From Escherichia phage vB_EcoM_G53, in sequence record MK327943.1: DNA of 64,000 nucleotides. One strand, 5' to 3'. The notes beneath the pieces were generated by a model. The model had not been told where the DNA came from. It was given only the letters and a program-made list of their open reading frames with translations, and ran no database searches. Below, piece after piece: positions 1-64,000 of this stretch. The position numbers and the translations under genes were made by a program. How positions within the stretch are numbered: the stretch's first letter is position 1; each line of letters begins with the position of its first letter.

Positions 1-2214
1 TTATTTGGCCGCTTCCACGGCCTTCATGAATTTAACGATTTGAGCGACCTGTTCTTTGGAAAGAGTACCACGTCGTCCCATGTAGTCTGACACAATATGA
101 TAATTGGTTTCGAATTCAATAACCATTTTATCATCATTATCGTAAGCATTATCTTTAAGCTTATCGAAAATTTTAGCACACAATTCTAACTTCTTATTCA
201 GGTCTGTATTAGTAGCACCTGCGAATCGATTCCATCCCCAACGATTATTTACTGTTGAGAGTTTTGCAAAGTCTTTACTGATTTCTTTGTTCTTAGAGCT
301 AAAATACTTACTAAGGAAGTTAAGCTCTTCATTACGAGTAATATGATTCAAATAAGGCTGTGCTCTACGACTTGGTGATACATACTCATCATAATCCACT
401 TTATCGATTAGCGTAATATAGTCATTAATTGATTTTTCGAACAAGCATTCTACTTCACCAAGTTTACGAGCTTTCTTAGCAATCTGTGGACGAACTACAG
501 TGAACTCTTTAATACCTGACAAATCAGCAATACGGGTCAAGAAATTGGAGTCATAGTTCAACCAACCTTTATCTGCGTCAAGACATTCAGCATTAGAACG
601 ATTACGAACTATAGCATAACCTTGGATTTCATCAGCTTCACTCGCTGGAATAAAGAGATCTTCTGATACCCAAACATCGTTTTCATTCTTAAAGAACCGA
701 TGAGCACTCGGGGATTTAGGACGAGGCCCATTAGAACGAGTCTTGACTTCAATCCATGGCTTAACGATTTGTAAAAGCTCTGAAGTCTTGTACATGTTAA
801 TGTTGTCGCCATCAAAGATAACTTTAAGACGTTCCAGAAGTTTCATTGCATCTTCGTCTGTAGGGTCAACGAATAGTACGCTTTTACCAAAACCGCGTGG
901 AACTTTACCGGTTAATTTAACCTCGTCTTTAGACATTTCAATTGAATTAAGAGCTCGCATTAATGGAACGCGTCCCTTAACGTCGTCAATAACAATTTCA
1001 ACGTTTTTAATGTTAATGCCAATCAGACTGTTAATTGAAATAGTTGTCGATGAGCTACCACTTTCACGAATACGACGAAGACGAGGGGATTCAACGATAT
1101 CGTATACGACACCAAGATTACACCACTCAGGCCCCATTTTAAAACGTTTGTACAACTCAGAATAAGTTAGTTGTTCTTTAGAGTATTTCAGTGATTCAAT
1201 ATTAGACCCAGCCTTTTCCATGTATTTACGAGCGGTATAACCAAGAGAATCAATTTCACGGAACACATGACGCGGGTATTTACAATCAATCCATTTCTTA
1301 GAATCTTCAGCGAACAATTTAGCATCGATTTCTGCAACGCGTTTATGGATATTTGCTACTGTACGTTTATCAAATGACAATGCTTCACGAGACGGGGCTA
1401 CATCTAGTTCGCCCATAGGGAATTTAATATAAGCTGTAGTGCATCGCGTCATCATCCATGTTTGTTCTTTAATAACACTTCCGATTGGATATACAATACC
1501 ACCATAAACAGCCATGATATTACCACGTTCACCCCATGGAGCTTCCTTGGCCAAATATACATCGTCAAATTCAGGAAAGTATTTAATATCTTTAACACCA
1601 CGAACTTCTGCAATATCACCTAGAGGACGCATAACATATGCAATTTCAGATGCGAACTTTTCAAAATCTTCTGGGTTAACAGGCACAACTACTTCAACGC
1701 CGGTCCGGTCATCAGGTCCCATCTTATCTACGAAGGTTGGCTTAATCTGTGGACCCGTGTCATCTTGGTAGATTACGTAACCACGAACTTCACCGTTGTG
1801 ATAAGACGTAAGGTTAAACGTATCAGTATATGCTAGTGGAGCTTTAGAGCCGAGTCCGAATCCACCAATGAAATCGTTACTCGATGTTTTAGTTGAAGCA
1901 AAATATGAGTTATAGATTCCTGGCTCTTCGTCATTACCTCGAATGGTGAAATCGCTCATACCAGGACCAAAGTCTCGAACTACAAAACGTGGGTCTAAAC
2001 GACCTGGAGCCTGAACAATAAACTTATCGGTGCAACCATTAAGAATTTGTCCATCGATACAGTTTGTGATTAATTCACGTACACAAGCCAATTCTTTGTT
2101 TGTATAAAGGTCATTAGATAAAATCTTATAAACTTTGCTATTGCCTTGAATAGTGAATGCTGTGCTCTTACCACCTGAACCAATAATCGTTTCTTTAGCC
2201 GTTTCAATAATCAT
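1..2214 (-). CDS. rIIA: rIIA protein (lysis inhibition / membrane integrity protector), GHKL ATPase-like N-terminus
   Basis: 737-aa ORF with stop at 1..3; GHKL-type motifs (ELITNCIDG, DFGPGM, GGFGLGSK); position next to gene 39 as in T4. Confidence 0.8.
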   Translation of the reverse strand: MIIETAKETIIGSGGKSTAFTIQGNSKVYKILSNDLYTNKELACVRELITNCIDGQILNGCTDKFIVQAPGRLDPRFVVRDFGPGMSDFTIRGNDEEPGIYNSYFASTKTSSNDFIGGFGLGSKAPLAYTDTFNLTSYHNGEVRGYVIYQDDTGPQIKPTFVDKMGPDDRTGVEVVVPVNPEDFEKFASEIAYVMRPLGDIAEVRGVKDIKYFPEFDDVYLAKEAPWGERGNIMAVYGGIVYPIGSVIKEQTWMMTRCTTAYIKFPMGELDVAPSREALSFDKRTVANIHKRVAEIDAKLFAEDSKKWIDCKYPRHVFREIDSLGYTARKYMEKAGSNIESLKYSKEQLTYSELYKRFKMGPEWCNLGVVYDIVESPRLRRIRESGSSSTTISINSLIGINIKNVEIVIDDVKGRVPLMRALNSIEMSKDEVKLTGKVPRGFGKSVLFVDPTDEDAMKLLERLKVIFDGDNINMYKTSELLQIVKPWIEVKTRSNGPRPKSPSAHRFFKNENDVWVSEDLFIPASEADEIQGYAIVRNRSNAECLDADKGWLNYDSNFLTRIADLSGIKEFTVVRPQIAKKARKLGEVECLFEKSINDYITLIDKVDYDEYVSPSRRAQPYLNHITRNEELNFLSKYFSSKNKEISKDFAKLSTVNNRWGWNRFAGATNTDLNKKLELCAKIFDKLKDNAYDNDDKMVIEFETNYHIVSDYMGRRGTLSKEQVAQIVKFMKAVEAAK

Positions 2215-2226
2215 ATTTTTCTCTCA

Positions 2227-2427
2227 TCACAAGTTACGTTTAAAAATTTCTGCTACTTCAAGAAGTTCTTCTTTAGTAGCTGTATCGGTTTGTATTTTAT
2301 ATCGAATTTCTTTAAAGCGTTCTTTAAAGGACTCTGCTGATTCGATATCAAAAAATCTTTGGATAAGCCGGAATTCCCGGAGCACTGCTTTATCAAAAAG
2401 TTCCAAGTCCACGTTATATGTTCTCAT
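2227..2427 (-). CDS. small hypothetical protein at the rIIA.1 position
   Basis: 66-aa ORF directly upstream of rIIA on the same strand. Confidence 0.4.
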   Translation of the reverse strand: MRTYNVDLELFDKAVLREFRLIQRFFDIESAESFKERFKEIRYKIQTDTATKEELLEVAEIFKRNL

Positions 2428-2519
2428 AATATTCTCTTCAGTAGATTCCTAGGGCACTATTACTAAAGACCATATAATCTATCATCTTATGTGTAATAGT
2501 GCCTCAGGCTATTCAGGAT

Positions 2520-3620
2520 TTACGCTGTGAAGATTTTATCCCACATCGCAACAACTGCATCTCGATTATACTTCTTCCATACTGCTTCAGCACGTTTAAC
2601 TCGAGCTTCGTATGTGTCAGTGAATTCTAATACAGCTTTTGTGTAAAGCGCAACTACTTCTTTCTTAGGAGTAGAGGAATCAATTTCTACACGCACAGTA
2701 TCCGGGTCGTATTCGAATGTCGCATGAGGATAATCCTTAAAAACTAACTGGATTACAGGGACACCTTTAGAGATGGCTTCAATAGAACTATTCTCTACCG
2801 TACCTGTGTCAGGACACGTATTAATAAGTGCTTTAGCCGTTTTAAGACGTTCCATGATTTCACTGTGTGGAGCATCAATAATAACAGGATATTTAGCTGG
2901 TGGTGCCCATTTGCTTGGACAGTATCCTGCACCATTTTCGCCTAGTGCTTTAATCGCTTCAAGAGCAACATCAGTACGACGCATTTTAGTGTCATAACGT
3001 TGTGCACTAATAATCAAATCCGTCGCCGGAAGAACTTCAGGTTTCTCATTCAAACAAATAACCGGATAATCTTCGGCTTCAAACAACGGATTTGCTCGCC
3101 AATAATCATAATCAATTTTGTCAGTCAGACCTGAAGTCATATAACAATATTTGCGTTCAAATTCACGGAAGGCTTTAGTAGGAGCATAACTCTTACCACC
3201 ATTCTTATGAATTTGAATAGTCTGGTCCCAAATTTGAACAATGCCACGAGATACCGGTTCAAATGGTGTTGCCATAAAATTCTTATGAACTTTAGAGAGA
3301 CCTGCGTCTTTAATTGCCTGAACGGTTAGTTTAGTCGGTTCCATAGTAACAACAAAATCGTATTCATGGATGCCGGCTAGTTCAACAATCTTACGAGCCA
3401 TAGTATAACTCATACCTAGACTGAATTTTGTCAGATGACCAACAGGATGATGATTAACCTTCCAATCACCAAACGTGTCATTGTCAAAACCGATATAATC
3501 AATATCAGCACCGATGGACACAAGATATTTCAACACATTTAAATGTACCGCTTCAAGACCACCTTGTACACGTTCTGGGTTAAATGGGACTGCACGAGAT
3601 GGGATAAACATAACTTTCAT
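2520..3620 (-). CDS. GT-B fold glycosyltransferase, candidate DNA 5-hmC glycosyl(arabinosyl)transferase
   Basis: 366-aa ORF; C-terminal GT4-like E-x7-EA-x3-G-x-PVI signature (TGTVENSSIEAISKGVPVI); sits where T4 carries gene 60/mobA. Confidence 0.55.
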   Translation of the reverse strand: MKVMFIPSRAVPFNPERVQGGLEAVHLNVLKYLVSIGADIDYIGFDNDTFGDWKVNHHPVGHLTKFSLGMSYTMARKIVELAGIHEYDFVVTMEPTKLTVQAIKDAGLSKVHKNFMATPFEPVSRGIVQIWDQTIQIHKNGGKSYAPTKAFREFERKYCYMTSGLTDKIDYDYWRANPLFEAEDYPVICLNEKPEVLPATDLIISAQRYDTKMRRTDVALEAIKALGENGAGYCPSKWAPPAKYPVIIDAPHSEIMERLKTAKALINTCPDTGTVENSSIEAISKGVPVIQLVFKDYPHATFEYDPDTVRVEIDSSTPKKEVVALYTKAVLEFTDTYEARVKRAEAVWKKYNRDAVVAMWDKIFTA

Positions 3621-60413: not shown

Positions 60414-60627
60414 AAGGAATTTCCTCATCTGTGGCAAGGTCATATTCGACCAATTGGATAGGCTCATTAATACCATATCCACGTACAGTGATATCAGTTG
60501 TCGGATAGTTTCCAGTAATATCACCCATTCTAAATGATTCAGTGAATGATTGCTCGCCTGAGCAACTAAACCAGGCGGCAAAACATTTTAAAACATCTTC
60601 AGACCCTTCTATAATCAATTTAGCCAT
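60403..60627 (-). CDS. small hypothetical protein
   Basis: 74-aa ORF. Confidence 0.4.
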   Translation of the reverse strand: MAKLIIEGSEDVLKCFAAWFSCSGEQSFTESFRMGDITGNYPTTDITVRGYGINEPIQLVEYDLATDEEIPYVD

Positions 60628-60989
60628 TATAGACTCTCAGTAAAGGTGCGAGCGATAACGTCACGCTGCTGTTCCGGAGTCAGAGAGTTAAAGCGAACTG
60701 CATAACCGGATACACGGATGGTCAGCTGCGGATATTTTTCCGGATGCTTAACTGCATCTTCCAGAGTTTCACGACGCAGAACGTTAACGTTCAGGTGTTG
60801 ACCACCTTCAATTTTAACTTTAGGTTGATGTTCAATTTCAATTTCACGGGCATTCAAACCGTAGAAAATTTCCGGGTCTACAATAGCGTCTTCTTTAAAA
60901 GTCTTAGAGACAATAATCCGGGCTTGAGTACCGTCTTCAAAATAAATAGTGCCTTTATGTGCACCTTCAAGAATTTGATATGCTTTCAT
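60627..60989 (-). CDS. autonomous glycyl-radical cofactor protein (GrcA/YfiD-like)
   Basis: 120-aa ORF; C-terminal [27 protein letters not shown] glycyl-radical (PFL-type RVSGY) motif. Confidence 0.65.
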
Positions 60990-61304: not shown

Positions 61305-61840
61305 TGCATTCCAATCACAAAAAATTGAGGACGAGCATTACCGCCGATGCAATATTTGCTTTTGCAACAGTGTTGGACTGTTTTAATATGTACATTGTAA
61401 ATCTTATCCATATCAGGAGCTTTAATAGGCTCGTCAATTATATACAGAATACGAGAAAGCGTTAATCCACGGAATTTAGAACCTTCATTGCCAATAAAAC
61501 TACGAACAGAATCAGTAAATAAACGGAATCGAATATCGTCGCTAGAATAACGAGAAAATTCTTTTTCAATGTTGCCAGCAGAAATTTTAGCATAAGCTGA
61601 AGTATTAGAAAGAACAATAACTGTTCCGCCATCATACAGCCAATTAGCAGCAAAGTTAGTCACAGCAATTGATTTACCTGATTGTCGGCCGCCGTCTAAA
61701 CGAAGTGTACAGTACTGCTTGAGTACGTCTTCAAATGGTGGGACATAACCGTTCTTACAAATTTCTTCTACTCTAGCATCAGAATGGTGTGTAAAAGCAT
61801 TCATCAGGGATAGATAAGGTCCAGTTAAAAATGTTCTCAT
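61301..61840 (-). CDS. P-loop protein (start placed at MRTFLTGP)
   Basis: ORF-track start at 61876 is a GTG; ATG at 61840; GGRQSGKS Walker A-like. Confidence 0.4.
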   Translation of the reverse strand: MRTFLTGPYLSLMNAFTHHSDARVEEICKNGYVPPFEDVLKQYCTLRLDGGRQSGKSIAVTNFAANWLYDGGTVIVLSNTSAYAKISAGNIEKEFSRYSSDDIRFRLFTDSVRSFIGNEGSKFRGLTLSRILYIIDEPIKAPDMDKIYNVHIKTVQHCCKSKYCIGGNARPQFFVIGMQ

Positions 61841-62012
61841 ATTATTTCTCTTAAGGTTGGGGCCATTCCGTGGCACATGTTAGGTCCTTCGACTCGCTAT
61901 GTAAACCCATTACCGCATTGCGCTCGACCTTATTACAGGTTGGAAAAGGTACATCACTCAGAGGACTCGACGTTCATGAGGAGAGGTTGCGTTTCCCTTT
62001 ATTAGGCAAGAA

Positions 62013-62342
62013 TTATACTCTAGGCTTTTGAGCTTGTTTGGTATTGGATTCCCATGCGGCTTTGGTAATTTTGTTAGCGGCATAACCAAAGGCATTAGAT
62101 AGAACACCTTTAGAGTTGAATACATCCAATCCAATAAGTACACCGGCTGTGTTAAATTTAGGAGCAAAGTACGCATTAGTTTTAGAAAGAACTTTTTTCA
62201 ATTCAGGGTCTTGAACCAAGCCATCAAAAACGCCTTTACTATTTACTTTGTATGTTACTTTGGGATTTTTACCTTCTTCGATAGCAGCTTTCTGTTCCGC
62301 AGATAATGTAACTTCAGTGATAAACTCCTGATATGTTTTCAT
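62013..62342 (-). CDS. internal protein (IP) with capsid-targeting leader
   Basis: 109-aa ORF beginning MKTYQEFITE, the T4 IP leader consensus; AAGGA SD. Confidence 0.6.
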   Translation of the reverse strand: MKTYQEFITEVTLSAEQKAAIEEGKNPKVTYKVNSKGVFDGLVQDPELKKVLSKTNAYFAPKFNTAGVLIGLDVFNSKGVLSNAFGYAANKITKAAWESNTKQAQKPRV

Positions 62343-62367
62343 TTTGTTCCTATTGTTTTAATTTATG

Positions 62368-62682
62368 TTATTCTTTAGGGAAGTTTTTAGAGTATGCATC
62401 ATAAAGTTTATTACCAATACGACGGAAGACTTTAGCTGCAAAACGGTTTTCAGGGTTTTTAATCATGATTTGCATCATGTAAGTTCCTGCATCCGAAAGA
62501 GCTTCTTCATAGTACCCATTAATTTCTTTAAGAGTCCTACGTTTACCGCCAGGACCATCAACAGTAATTTTCCATTTACCTGTAGAAGTGCGGCTCGGTG
62601 GCTCAACTTGTTCAATCCAAATATAACCACCTTCAACGCGTTGGTTGGCGGATTCTGCAATAAATTCTTTATACGTTTTCAT
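62368..62682 (-). CDS. internal protein (IP) with capsid-targeting leader
   Basis: 104-aa ORF beginning MKTYKEFIAE. Confidence 0.6.
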   Translation of the reverse strand: MKTYKEFIAESANQRVEGGYIWIEQVEPPSRTSTGKWKITVDGPGGKRRTLKEINGYYEEALSDAGTYMMQIMIKNPENRFAAKVFRRIGNKLYDAYSKNFPKE

Positions 62683-62746
62683 TTTTTGTTTCCTTGTTTG
62701 TTTTGATAGAGTAATTATACCATATTAATACTTAAGCGTAAACAAT

Positions 62747-63007
62747 TTAAGCTTTACCGCCAGAAATAATTCCGAAGTTGTTAAAATCGTATCCAATATC
62801 GTCAACATCTACTTTAGGGCTTGCTACAACATAAGCAATTTCACTACGTTTTGCATAGGTGTTGATTTCTTTACCATCGCCACCTAAGAAAGAATACCCA
62901 TTACGTTTTAATGAGCCAAAGTCTTCCGCATCACCAATGAAAGCTTTAACTTTAAATTTGGGGTCTTTGGCATCTGCTTCAATGATAAATTCTTGATACA
63001 TTTTCAT
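62747..63007 (-). CDS. internal protein-like product from the internal start inside the denV frame
   Basis: ATG at 63007 preceded by TAAGGAAAAA; [14 protein letters not shown] leader. Confidence 0.45.
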
Positions 63008-63427
63008 TTTTTCCTTAGTAAATTGATTACCATAGTATTTGTACCAAGTCGGACGTTGAGCAATTTTTTCATCTAAGCGTGCTTGACTTATCGCAATGGA
63101 CGCTTCGGACGGGACGTAATTATTACGAAATTCGGCAGGAATGTCGGAAATATCCTGGACAGTCGTGTCCTTGATTTTGAAACCGCGTTTCAAGCATTCA
63201 GCGATTAGCTCGATTTGTCGTAAACGTAAAAATTCGAGTTTGTCGTAAAAGAATGTTACGTGACCTGTGCCTAAGATAAATGTTGGAGAGATTTTAAAAT
63301 CCTTTACACGTTTACCGTTTTGAACATGTTTACGGACTGCACCAAATACGCGTGGTAATTCACGATACTCAGCCATAAGATGTTGGTCGGACAGTTCAGA
63401 AACAAGTGTTAAATTGATACGAGTCAT
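62747..63427 (-). CDS. denV: DenV endonuclease V (pyrimidine-dimer glycosylase) reading in-frame into an IP-like C-terminal module
   Basis: from the ATG at 63427: [34 protein letters not shown] matches T4 DenV as I recall it; no stop before [10 protein letters not shown] at 63007. Confidence 0.75.
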
Positions 63428-63455
63428 AATTTCCTCCAAGTAGTTGATGAATGTA

Positions 63456-63485
63456 TAGTATCAAAACCCTTGGAGGAAGTAAACA
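63456..63485 (-). promoter_or_regulatory. early promoter with inverted repeat spanning spacer and denV SD
   Basis: minus strand GTTTAC, 18-nt spacer, TACTAT; cctccaag pairs with cttggagg carrying the SD; coordinates approximate. Confidence 0.45.
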
Positions 63486-63767
63486 CTATTTTTCTGAAGC
63501 GCCTGAAATATATTTTTCAAGACGTTGTTTCATTAGCGAGCCGTTCTTAGCGATTTCTTCCGGTTTATCGCACATACGTAACAAGGCTTCAAGCTTAGCG
63601 ATATCGCTGGTACGTTCAAATTTGCGAGTATCTATTTTACTAGCAAGTTCAGAAATACGTGCTAATAGACTTTCAGCTTCAACCAAAGCTGCACCTAGCT
63701 TAGTTGCAAATGTGTCGGTAGCTTCGTTAAGAATAGATTCTGATAAAAATTCACTATATGTTTTCAT
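63486..63767 (-). CDS. internal protein (IP) with capsid-targeting leader
   Basis: 93 aa from [10 protein letters not shown]; ATG overlaps the e stop codon (ATGA). Confidence 0.55.
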
Positions 63768-64000
63768 ATATACGCTTTCCAAGTTCCTGTTTTAAATGTT
63801 GAGATTACGCGTTTCGCGCGATTAGGTGTCTGACGATACCATTTAGATTGGGCTAGATTTACTGCCGCTTCATCCCAACGTTTCTGTTGAAGCATACGAA
63901 GAGAATTAGTAAAACCGGCGACGCCTGCTACACCCATTTGGAAGACCATATTGACCAATGCACAACGACGAACTGCATCTAAAGAATCATACACCGGTTT
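63764..64000 (-). CDS. e: lysozyme e (endolysin), 3' portion only; 5' end lies beyond the window
   Basis: C-terminal 76 aa [62 protein letters not shown] matches T4 lysozyme as I recall it. Confidence 0.85.

What the first reader, a model, noticed from the sequence alone, without database searches (positions are those of the whole stretch)
62013..63767. Four genes carrying the MKTYQEF-type capsid-targeting leader
ORFs at 62013..62342, 62368..62682, 62747..63007 and 63486..63767 all begin with variants of MKTYQEFIAE, the leader that directs T4 internal proteins into the prohead before protease cleavage. The mature parts are dissimilar, so they are likely a diversified set of proteins injected with the DNA, which in T4 includes anti-restriction factors.
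Basis: partly seen in the sequence, partly recalled or inferred. Interest (0 to 1): 0.5.

Follow-up and report, generated by a model that had tools for sequence, protein, structure and literature searches.

The report
Four capsid-targeted internal protein genes
Four small genes around the UV-repair gene denV of this RB69-like T4-type phage carry the short leader that loads proteins into the phage head for injection with the DNA; the class has been known since 1994, and its characterised members block host enzymes that cut modified phage DNA.

Summary
Four minus-strand ORFs (62013-62342, 62368-62682, 62747-63007, 63486-63767) start with [30 protein letters not shown] and [10 protein letters not shown]. 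They are the only such starts in the 64 kb window; shuffled sequence gave none. All four keep the residues shown in T4 to drive capsid targeting (Y4, F7) and prohead-protease cleavage (I/L8, E10). Their mature parts are unrelated to each other and to T4 IPI, IPII and IPIII, and are under purifying selection.

The window is an RB69-like Mosigvirus. The genes flank denV in the known polymorphic ip locus (e-denV-vs.8).
- ORF2 is Ip10.
- ORF4 is an Ip5 relative; this is already noted in the RB32 GenBank record.
- ORF3 is called 'internal head protein' in RefSeq.
- ORF1 is 'hypothetical' in every record listed.

Cassette-swap breakpoints between related phages fall inside the leader-coding DNA.

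Ip1-3 each inhibit a distinct GmrSD type IV nuclease, and another leader-bearing protein inhibits McrBC. Packaging and targets of these four remain untested.

New here: a one-base deletion fuses denV in frame to ORF3. It is found in this genome only and may be a sequencing error. Low novelty, modest interest.

The parts
63486..63767 (-). ORF4: 93-aa internal-protein precursor, an Ip5 relative and the orthologue of RB69ORF127c. Leader [10 protein letters not shown]. The mature part has pI 6.3.
   Evidence: phrog_3499 'internal head protein', E 2e-46; about 48% identity to Ip5 of T2 and RB32; RB32 note naming RB69ORF127c; dN/dS 0.02-0.09.
62747..63007 (-). ORF3: 86-aa internal-protein precursor, the orthologue of RB69ORF125c. 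Leader [10 protein letters not shown]. The mature part has pI 5.2. In this genome it is also read through from denV.
   Evidence: RefSeq 'internal head protein'; phrog_2667, E 2.6e-21; dN/dS 0.09-0.21.
62368..62682 (-). ORF2: 104-aa Ip10 precursor. Its RB69 orthologue, ORF124c, has a different, shorter C-terminus. Leader MKTYKEFIAE. The mature part has pI 9.6.
   Evidence: JK36 note 'Ip10'; same 90% cluster as Ip10 of phage Pol, CAA84455; 72% identity to Ip10 of SP18; AF2 pLDDT 70, strand-strand-helix-strand-helix; no fold neighbour; dN/dS 0.2-0.38.
62013..62342 (-). ORF1: 109-aa internal-protein precursor, the orthologue of RB69ORF123c. Leader MKTYQEFITE. The mature part has pI 9.7. It is annotated 'hypothetical' in every record listed for it.
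   Evidence: 90 phage records; relatives at 35-37% identity directly downstream of denV in Dhakavirus; dN/dS about 0.3.
63738..63767 (-). Leader (capsid targeting sequence) codons 1-10 of ORF4. The ATG overlaps the stop codon of the lysozyme gene e (ATGA, 63764-63767).
62978..63007 (-). Leader codons 1-10 of ORF3. There is a second in-frame ATG at codon 3.
62653..62682 (-). Leader codons 1-10 of ORF2. Homology to phages carrying a different cassette here stops exactly after codon 10.
62313..62342 (-). Leader codons 1-10 of ORF1. The 3' junction of the same cassette swap lies inside this leader.
63015..63427 (-). denV (endonuclease V, pyrimidine-dimer glycosylase), which separates ORF4 from ORF3. 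Its ancestral TAA (63015-63017) is out of frame here, so denV runs on into ORF3.
   Evidence: (PF03013).
63027..63028 (-). Site of the one-base deletion (AAA to AA) that shifts denV past its stop codon.
   Evidence: It is unique among the six sequences aligned. No phage record matches the junction exactly (best 98.9%, 176 records). The exact fusion protein is known only from phage vB_EcoM_G53.
63007..63012 (-). A6 tract between the ORF3 ribosome-binding site (AAGGA) and its ATG. Its length varies from 5 to 7 among related phages.
62714..62742 (-). Sigma-70-type promoter-like site (TTTACG, 17 nt spacer, TG-n-TATAAT) upstream of ORF2.
   Evidence: 10 of 12 matches. The site is identical in phages with a different downstream cassette. 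It is a consensus match only.
63764..64000 (-). 3' part of the lysozyme gene e, which marks the upstream border of the ip locus. It is cut by the end of the window.

Best explanation
The four ORFs are precursors of T4-type internal head proteins (Ips).

Proposed pathway:
1. The 10-residue N-terminal leader (consensus M-K-T-Y-x-E-F-I/L-x-E) binds the scaffolding core while the prohead is built.
2. The prohead protease gp21 cuts after Glu10.
3. The 76-99-residue mature proteins stay in the head with the DNA.
4. They are injected with the DNA at the next infection.
5. In the new host each most likely acts as a stoichiometric inhibitor of one particular modification-dependent (type IV) nuclease that would otherwise cut the phage's arabinosylated cytosine DNA.

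The leader-coding DNA, together with the ribosome-binding site in front of it, also serves as the homology patch through which different mature-protein cassettes are swapped between phages and between the two ip loci.

Shown here: the leaders, their conserved key residues, the locus, orthology to Ip10 and Ip5, purifying selection, and the recombination junctions.

Inferred: packaging, cleavage, injection and anti-restriction activity.
For: Leaders:
- They are exact in the window and absent from shuffles.
- Y4, F7, I/L8 and E10 are the residues mapped as targeting and processing determinants in T4 IPIII.
- Across 64 distinct leader-bearing ORFs next to denV in 34 T4-like contigs, positions 1-10 are nearly invariant and conservation collapses from position 11.

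Locus:
- The window order is e-ORF4-denV-ORF3-ORF2-ORF1-vs.8. T4 has e-ipIII-ipII-denV-vs.8.
- The 68 leader ORFs in those contigs form about 15 mature-part families, all on the denV strand and on both sides of denV.

Named relatives: Ip10 and Ip5. RefSeq uses 'internal head protein' for two of them.

Real genes: dN/dS of the mature parts is 0.02-0.38.

Processing machinery: the protease gp21 and the core proteins gp22, gp67 and gp68 are present in RB69, whose ip locus is 98% identical to the window's.

Cassette exchange:
- Against G2285 and PHB12, identity is near 100% through the intergenic region, the ribosome-binding site and the leader. It ends after codon 10 of ORF2.
- Against L010, identity resumes inside the ORF1 leader. 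The swapped-in ipIII-like cassette brings a T4-type ipII upstream sequence with it.

Function, from the literature:
- Ip1, Ip2 and Ip3 each block a different GmrSD enzyme.
- IPIII is needed for T4 to infect ECOR17.
- Bas37_0260 blocks McrBC.
- Mosigvirus DNA carries 5-arabinosyl cytosine and is cut by the GmrSD-family enzyme BrxU.
- The window encodes a 99.5% identical copy of RB69 ORF003c, proposed as the arabinosyltransferase.

Expression:
- The ORF4 ATG overlaps the e stop codon.
- In T4 the exact late promoters lie just upstream of e, and none lies in front of ipIII or ipII.
- T4 IPs are made both early and late (PMC6071114). This fits the sigma-70-like site before ORF2.
Against: - There are no virion proteomics for these four proteins in any paper I could reach.
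- Ip4-Ip10 were tested against a panel of GmrSD variants without a reproducible interaction, so Ip10's target is unknown and may not be a GmrSD enzyme.
- The Mosigvirus phage NP remains sensitive to BrxU.
- Mature ORF3 and ORF4 are acidic to neutral (pI 5.2 and 6.3), unlike the basic T4 IPs (pI 9.0-9.65).
- ORF4 evolves very slowly (dN/dS 0.02-0.09), which is not the pattern expected of an arms-race protein.
- There is no exact TATAAATA late promoter on the minus strand between 61800 and 64000.
- Structure gave no functional clue. The Ip10 model is of moderate confidence and has no neighbours. The ORF3 model is unusable.
Confidence: 0.72

Rival explanations
1. The proteins are packaged and injected, but their main role is not anti-restriction. 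They could instead balance DNA charge or organise DNA in the head, or act in early host takeover.
For: - T4 IPs are described as highly basic, are present in large numbers, and have been assigned a charge-balancing role. Their heavy early synthesis led to a proposed early regulatory role (PMC6071114).
- Mature ORF1 and ORF2 are basic (pI 9.6-9.7).
- Ip4-Ip10 showed no reproducible GmrSD inhibition.
Against: - Every leader-bearing protein with an assigned function so far is a type IV nuclease inhibitor: Ip1, Ip2, Ip3 and Bas37_0260.
- About 15 unrelated mature families in one hotspot fit specific protein targets better than a generic polycation role.
- ORF3 and ORF4 are not basic.
Confidence: 0.17
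2. ORF4 (the Ip5-like protein) is a prohead-core or assembly component in the manner of gp67 and gp68. It would be cut into small peptides by gp21 rather than act as an injected effector.
For: - It has strong purifying selection (dN/dS 0.02-0.09 at dS up to 0.64).
- It carries four (L/I)xE motifs in its first 40 residues.
- Its start overlaps the e stop codon.
- It is the only one of the four that is constant in position, always between e and denV.
Against: - Four (L/I)xE motifs are close to what the composition alone would give; my rough estimate is about 2.6 expected.
- Ip5 occupies the dispensable ipI slot in RB32 and 'replaces ipI'.
- The leader of the RB69 reference copy is scrambled by a -1/+1 indel pair, which an essential core protein would not tolerate if that sequence is correct.
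Confidence: 0.08
3. The leader is an inherited relic. The proteins are ordinary cytoplasmic early proteins and are not packaged.
For: - There is a sigma-70-like promoter before ORF2 and no exact late promoter inside the cluster.
- IPIII without its leader still works when the host expresses it.
Against: - Leader positions 1-10 are almost invariant across 64 sequences whose mature parts are unrelated.
- Synonymous sites in the leader differ between the four genes. The conservation is therefore at the protein level, not just recent gene conversion.
- T4 IPs are also made early.
Confidence: 0.03

Closest known systems
T4 internal proteins IPI, IPII and IPIII (Ip1-3)
   Same: - The N-terminal capsid targeting leader is the same; for IPII and IPIII, MKTYQEFIAE is near-identical to the window's leaders.
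- The gp21 cleavage motif (I/L)xE at residues 8-10 is the same.
- ORF4 occupies the ipIII/ipII slot between e and denV.
- They are small, and the T4 genes are described as non-essential.
   Different: - The mature parts share no detectable similarity.
- Three of the four genes lie downstream of denV, where T4 has none.
- Two mature proteins are acidic to neutral, whereas the T4 IPs have pI 9.0-9.65.
- The phage DNA is arabinosylated rather than glucosylated.
Ip10 (phage Pol, CAA84455; Shigella phage SP18)
   Same: ORF2 is in the same 90%-identity cluster as Ip10 of phage Pol and is 72% identical to Ip10 of SP18 over its full length.
   Different: Nothing substantive; ORF2 is an orthologue. Its function is unknown. 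Ip4-10 gave no reproducible GmrSD inhibition.
Ip5 (T2, T6, RB15, RB32)
   Same: ORF4 is about 48% identical over 84 residues (E 2e-15). The RB32 record itself lists RB69ORF127c, the orthologue of ORF4, as an Ip5 relative.
   Different: Ip5 sits in the other ip locus (57B-tRNA.4, where it replaces ipI) in RB32. ORF4 sits between e and denV and overlaps the e stop codon.
Bas37_0260, a leader-bearing McrBC inhibitor (HIDEN-SEQ preprint, 10.1101/2025.11.20.689424)
   Same: It has the same N-terminal packaging leader and sits in an ip locus. It shows that leader-bearing proteins can target type IV enzymes other than GmrSD.
   Different: That preprint reports no homology between Bas37_0260 and IPI-III beyond the leader. 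I did not compare its sequence with ORF1-4.
Other packaged anti-restriction proteins, such as phage P1 DarA/DarB (from my own knowledge, not tested here)
   Same: They follow the same logic: the inhibitor travels in the capsid and arrives with the DNA, before any phage gene is expressed.
   Different: The proteins are unrelated and much larger, use a different packaging route, and target type I restriction.

Membership tests
T4-type internal head proteins (leader-bearing Ips) | An N-terminal leader resembling MKTYQEFIAE, with the targeting residues Y4 and F7 | tested here: met
   All four ORFs have it.
T4-type internal head proteins (leader-bearing Ips) | A gp21 cleavage motif (I/L)-x-E ending at residue 10 | tested here: met
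   ITE, IAE, IIE and LSE at residues 8-10.
T4-type internal head proteins (leader-bearing Ips) | Location in one of the two polymorphic ip loci (e-denV-vs.8, or 57B-tRNA.4) | tested here: met
   The gene order is e-ORF4-denV-ORF3-ORF2-ORF1-vs.8. Thirty-four related contigs carry 1-5 leader ORFs at this locus.
T4-type internal head proteins (leader-bearing Ips) | A conserved leader joined to unrelated, interchangeable mature domains | tested here: met
   The cassette junctions lie in the leader.
T4-type internal head proteins (leader-bearing Ips) | The phage encodes the prohead protease gp21 and the scaffolding core (gp22, gp67, gp68) | tested here: inconclusive
   These genes lie outside the 64 kb window. 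They are present in RB69, whose ip locus is 98% identical to the window's.
T4-type internal head proteins (leader-bearing Ips) | The protein is found in purified virions in processed form and is injected with the DNA | not testable with these tools
   This needs virion mass spectrometry. No such data were found.
T4-type internal head proteins (leader-bearing Ips) | Expression at the time of head assembly | tested here: inconclusive
   - There is no exact TATAAATA in 61800-64000.
- The ORF4 start overlaps the e stop codon.
- T4 places its exact late promoters upstream of e.
- JK36 has AATAAATA at that position.
- T4 IPs are made both early and late.
Ip10 family | Full-length sequence similarity of the mature part to a protein named Ip10 | tested here: met
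   ORF2.
Ip5 family | Sequence similarity of the mature part to Ip5 | tested here: met
   ORF4: about 48% identity, E 2e-15, plus the annotator's note in RB32.
IPI* family (GmrSD-CT596 inhibitor fold) | Sequence or fold similarity of the mature part to IPI* | tested here: not met
   - There is no similarity beyond the leader.
- No PDB sequence hit is significant (best E 0.04).
- The Ip10 model has no PDB neighbour.
- ORF1, ORF3 and ORF4 were not tested by fold.
Type IV restriction (GmrSD or McrBC) inhibitors | Relief of restriction by a defined nuclease | not testable with these tools
   Published tests of Ip4-10 against GmrSD variants were negative or not reproducible.

The most novel reading that the evidence does not exclude
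In this genome a one-base deletion removes the denV stop codon and produces a DenV-linker-leader-Ip polyprotein (ORF 62747-63427). Suppose the change is real and the leader still works in an internal position. The UV-repair glycosylase DenV would then be carried into the prohead, cut free by gp21 after IIE, and injected with the DNA. That would be a natural case of an enzyme captured as capsid cargo by fusion to an Ip leader. The evidence leans towards a sequencing error or a neutral strain mutation: it occurs in a single genome, at a short A run, and the paper describing phage G53, the only source of the exact fusion protein, says its genomes were sequenced by either Illumina or PacBio.
Probability: 0.03. 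Interest if true: 0.6.

Novelty: already known. Interest (0 to 1): 0.27.

Why it matters
Leader-bearing internal proteins are currently the main known route by which T4-type phages deliver ready-made inhibitors of modification-dependent nucleases. Only four of them have assigned targets. These four belong to a phage whose DNA carries arabinosylated rather than glucosylated cytosine. They are therefore reasonable candidates for inhibitors of nucleases that recognise that modification, and ORF1 has never been labelled as an internal protein in the records listed. The leader-embedded recombination junctions show concretely how such cargo is exchanged. None of this changes the existing picture; it adds members and a clean illustration.

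Tried and rejected
- Pfam and NCBIfam: no significant family for any of the four ORFs.
- PHROGs: ORF1 and ORF2 both fall in phrog_3966, which suggested they might be paralogues. Profile-profile comparison of the mature parts rejects that (0.2% probability).
- Similarity to T4 IPI, IPII and IPIII: confined to the leader.
- PDB sequence search: nothing significant (best E 0.04).
- Word-indexed homologue searches: the families are very narrow, with 2, 3 and 12 clusters.
- Exhaustive HMMER search with mature ORF1: only the Dhakavirus relative, plus compositional hits to large repeat proteins (cadherin-like and MBG domains), which I regard as spurious.
- AlphaFold:
  - The Ip10 model has pLDDT 70 and no neighbours in PDB or BFVD.
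  - The ORF3 model has pLDDT 45 and was discarded.
- Late promoters: no exact TATAAATA in the cluster.
- Rfam search and folding of the 136-nt ORF1-vs.8 spacer: nothing.
- Repoila et al. 1994 (PMC395341) could not be read. Statements about it rest on other papers' citations of it and on my memory.
- No virion proteome of a Mosigvirus was found.
- The contingency-locus preprint uses ipIV only as a zero-variation example.
Full report
**What is there**

The region 62013-63767 holds four minus-strand ORFs. They begin as follows:
- ORF1, 62342->62013, 109 aa: MKTYQEFITE
- ORF2, 62682->62368, 104 aa: MKTYKEFIAE
- ORF3, 63007->62747, 86 aa: [10 protein letters not shown]
- ORF4, 63767->63486, 93 aa: [10 protein letters not shown]

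A six-frame scan of all 64 kb finds this motif only at these four ORF starts. None appeared in 200 shuffles, and a looser pattern adds nothing real.

**Origin and context**

The ip locus (61800-64000) is 98-99% identical to Mosigvirus phages such as JK36, mar005P1 and RB69. On the minus strand the gene order is e (lysozyme), ORF4, denV, ORF3, ORF2, ORF1, vs.8. This matches RB69 ORF127c, denV, ORF125c, ORF124c and ORF123c. T4 has e, ipIII, ipII, denV, vs.8. ORF4 therefore sits where T4 keeps ipIII and ipII, and the other three occupy a slot that is empty in T4.

The window also carries a 99.5% identical copy of RB69 ORF003c at 2523-3620. That gene is the proposed DNA arabinosyltransferase. Mosigvirus DNA contains arabinosylated cytosine and is cut by the GmrSD-family enzyme BrxU.

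**Are they internal proteins?**

In T4 IPIII the first 10 residues suffice for capsid targeting. Residues 4 and 7 matter for targeting, and residues 8 and 10 for cleavage by the prohead protease gp21 (review PMC9026906). All four leaders keep Y4, F7, I/L8 and E10.

I fetched 80 loci around denV homologues from viral contigs. Thirty-four T4-like contigs carry 68 leader-bearing ORFs next to denV. All lie on the denV strand, on either side of it. They fall into about 15 families by their mature parts. Among 64 distinct sequences the leader is almost invariant: K2, T3 in 60 of 64, Y4, E6, F7, I/L8, and E10 in 62 of 64. Conservation collapses from residue 11. Part of that invariance is built into my search pattern; T3 and E10 were unconstrained.

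Each of the window's four families recurs in other phages. The mature parts are under purifying selection, with dN/dS 0.02-0.38, so these are real genes.

RB69 encodes gp21, gp22, gp67 and gp68. These lie outside the window.

**Names already attached**

- ORF2 is in the same 90%-identity cluster as Ip10 of phage Pol. It is 72% identical to Ip10 of SP18, and JK36 annotates it 'Ip10'.
- ORF4 is about 48% identical to Ip5 of T2 and RB32. The RB32 record itself says Ip5 is 'similar to ... RB69ORF127c, replaces ipI'.
- RefSeq names RB69p125 (ORF3) and RB69p127 (ORF4) 'internal head protein'.
- ORF1 is 'hypothetical' in every listed record among its 90 matching phage records. Its distant relatives (35-37% identity) sit directly downstream of denV in Dhakavirus phages.

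**Are the mature parts unrelated?**

Yes. Pairwise BLASTP is not significant. Similarity to T4 IPI, IPII and IPIII is confined to the leader. The shared hit of ORF1 and ORF2 to phrog_3966 does not survive profile-profile comparison of the mature parts (0.2% probability).

Mature ORF1 and ORF2 are basic (pI 9.7 and 9.6), like the T4 IPs (9.0-9.65). ORF3 and ORF4 are not (5.2 and 6.3).

**How the set diversifies**

- Compared with phages G2285 and PHB12, which carry an ipIII-like gene where the window has Ip10, the DNA is essentially identical through the end of ORF3, the intergenic promoter-like region, the ribosome-binding site and the leader. Similarity then breaks immediately after codon 10.
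- Compared with contig L010 (ORF3, ipIII-like gene, ORF1), identity resumes inside the ORF1 leader. Just upstream, L010 carries the T4-type ipII upstream sequence (tttacatttaaaggaaacatATG).
- The unit exchanged therefore runs from one leader to the next, and the leader-coding DNA is where the crossovers happened.
- ipIII-like genes occur on both sides of denV, and Ip5 sits in the other ip locus in RB32. Cassettes therefore also move between slots and between loci.
- As far as I recall, Repoila et al. (1994) proposed this kind of shuffling. I could not open that paper.

**Expression**

- There is no exact T4 late promoter (TATAAATA) on the minus strand between 61800 and 64000.
- In T4 the two exact late promoters of this region lie just upstream of e, and none precedes ipIII or ipII. 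On that basis I infer that the ip genes are probably served by transcripts starting before e.
- JK36, 99% identical across this locus, has AATAAATA at the corresponding place.
- The ORF4 ATG overlaps the e stop codon (ATGA).
- A sigma-70-type site (TTTACG, 17 nt, TG-n-TATAAT) lies upstream of ORF2.
- T4 IPs are made in quantity both early and late (PMC6071114), so an early promoter here is not evidence against the assignment.

**Function**

- IPI inhibits GmrSD of strain CT596.
- IPIII is required for T4 to infect ECOR17, and it acts in the cytoplasm even without its leader.
- Ip2 and Ip3 inhibit two further, very different GmrSD systems, with strict one-to-one specificity.
- A leader-bearing protein of phage Bas37 inhibits McrBC.
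- Ip4-Ip10 were tested against other GmrSD variants without a reproducible effect.

The most likely role of the four proteins is therefore specific inhibition of individual modification-dependent nucleases. Their targets are unknown and need not be GmrSD enzymes.

Structure did not help. The Ip10 model (pLDDT 70; strand-strand-helix-strand-helix) has no neighbour in the PDB or among viral models. The ORF3 model was too poor to use.

**Peculiarity of this genome**

Relative to all aligned relatives, one A is missing from GGTAAATC at 63027-63028. This puts the denV stop codon (63015-63017) out of frame. With the A6 spacer before the ORF3 ATG, denV now reads straight into ORF3.

The exact 226-residue fusion protein exists in the databases only as QBO65262.1 of phage vB_EcoM_G53. 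No phage record matches the junction exactly; the best of 176 is 98.9% identical. The paper describing that phage says its genomes were sequenced by either Illumina or PacBio, so an error cannot be excluded. ORF3 keeps its own ribosome-binding site and ATG either way.

**Verdict**

Two of the four are named families and two are already labelled in RefSeq. What remains open is experimental: packaging, processing, and the identity of the targets.

Noticed in passing
window 63015-63031 (ORF 62747-63439): A one-base deletion (AAA to AA) puts the denV stop codon out of frame and fuses denV to ORF3. The exact fusion protein is known only from phage vB_EcoM_G53. It may be a sequencing error.
   Followed up: yes
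window 63007-63012: The A tract between the ORF3 ribosome-binding site and its ATG is 5, 6 or 7 bases long in different Mosigvirus genomes. ORF3 also has a second in-frame ATG at codon 3, and some annotators start the gene there. The tract length could shift which start codon is used.
   Followed up: partly
window 63431-63478, minus strand: A 10-bp inverted repeat (TTCCTCCAAG ... CTTGGAGGAA) folds into a hairpin that buries the denV Shine-Dalgarno sequence. The free energy is -19.8 kcal/mol and z is -3.3 against shuffles. From memory, this recalls the hairpin that blocks translation of early T4 e transcripts.
   Followed up: partly
window 62714-62742, minus strand: A sigma-70-like promoter with an extended -10 element lies upstream of ORF2. 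By eye, the sequence ACGCTTAA around -30 resembles a MotA box. The site is identical in phages that carry a different cassette downstream.
   Followed up: partly
L001 (RB69 NC_004928), locus 1714-3468: Three of the four RB69 reference copies look damaged. ORF127c has its leader scrambled by a -1/+1 indel pair. ORF124c ends in a different, shorter C-terminus than ORF2. ORF123c has Ala instead of Glu at position 10. These are either laboratory-stock mutations or old sequencing errors.
   Followed up: partly
L021 and L022, 3660-3941: The ORF4 relatives in these contigs have Val at leader position 10 (MKTYNEFLTV) but keep LNE at residues 13-15. Cleavage in this family may therefore occur after residue 15.
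   Followed up: no
L028, 4429-4878: This Ip10 relative is 149 aa long, with an extra stretch of about 55 residues between the leader and the Ip10-like domain.
   Followed up: no
P0075 (Logan contig, 54 aa): This short protein joins the first 30 residues of DenV directly to the last 24 residues of ORF3. It is either a deletion variant or an assembly artefact.
   Followed up: no
window 2523-3620, minus strand: A 99.5% identical copy of RB69 ORF003c, the proposed DNA arabinosyltransferase. This implies that the phage DNA is arabinosylated.
   Followed up: partly
window 60627-60989, minus strand: The vs.6 homologue ends in the glycyl-radical motif RVSGYAV and is annotated in RB69 as the autonomous glycyl radical cofactor GrcA.
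   Followed up: no
L094 (RB32), locus 2129-2771: The annotators note that the Ip9 and Ip7 cassettes in the ipI locus are flanked by a 43-bp direct repeat. This is another possible recombination substrate for cassette exchange.
   Followed up: no
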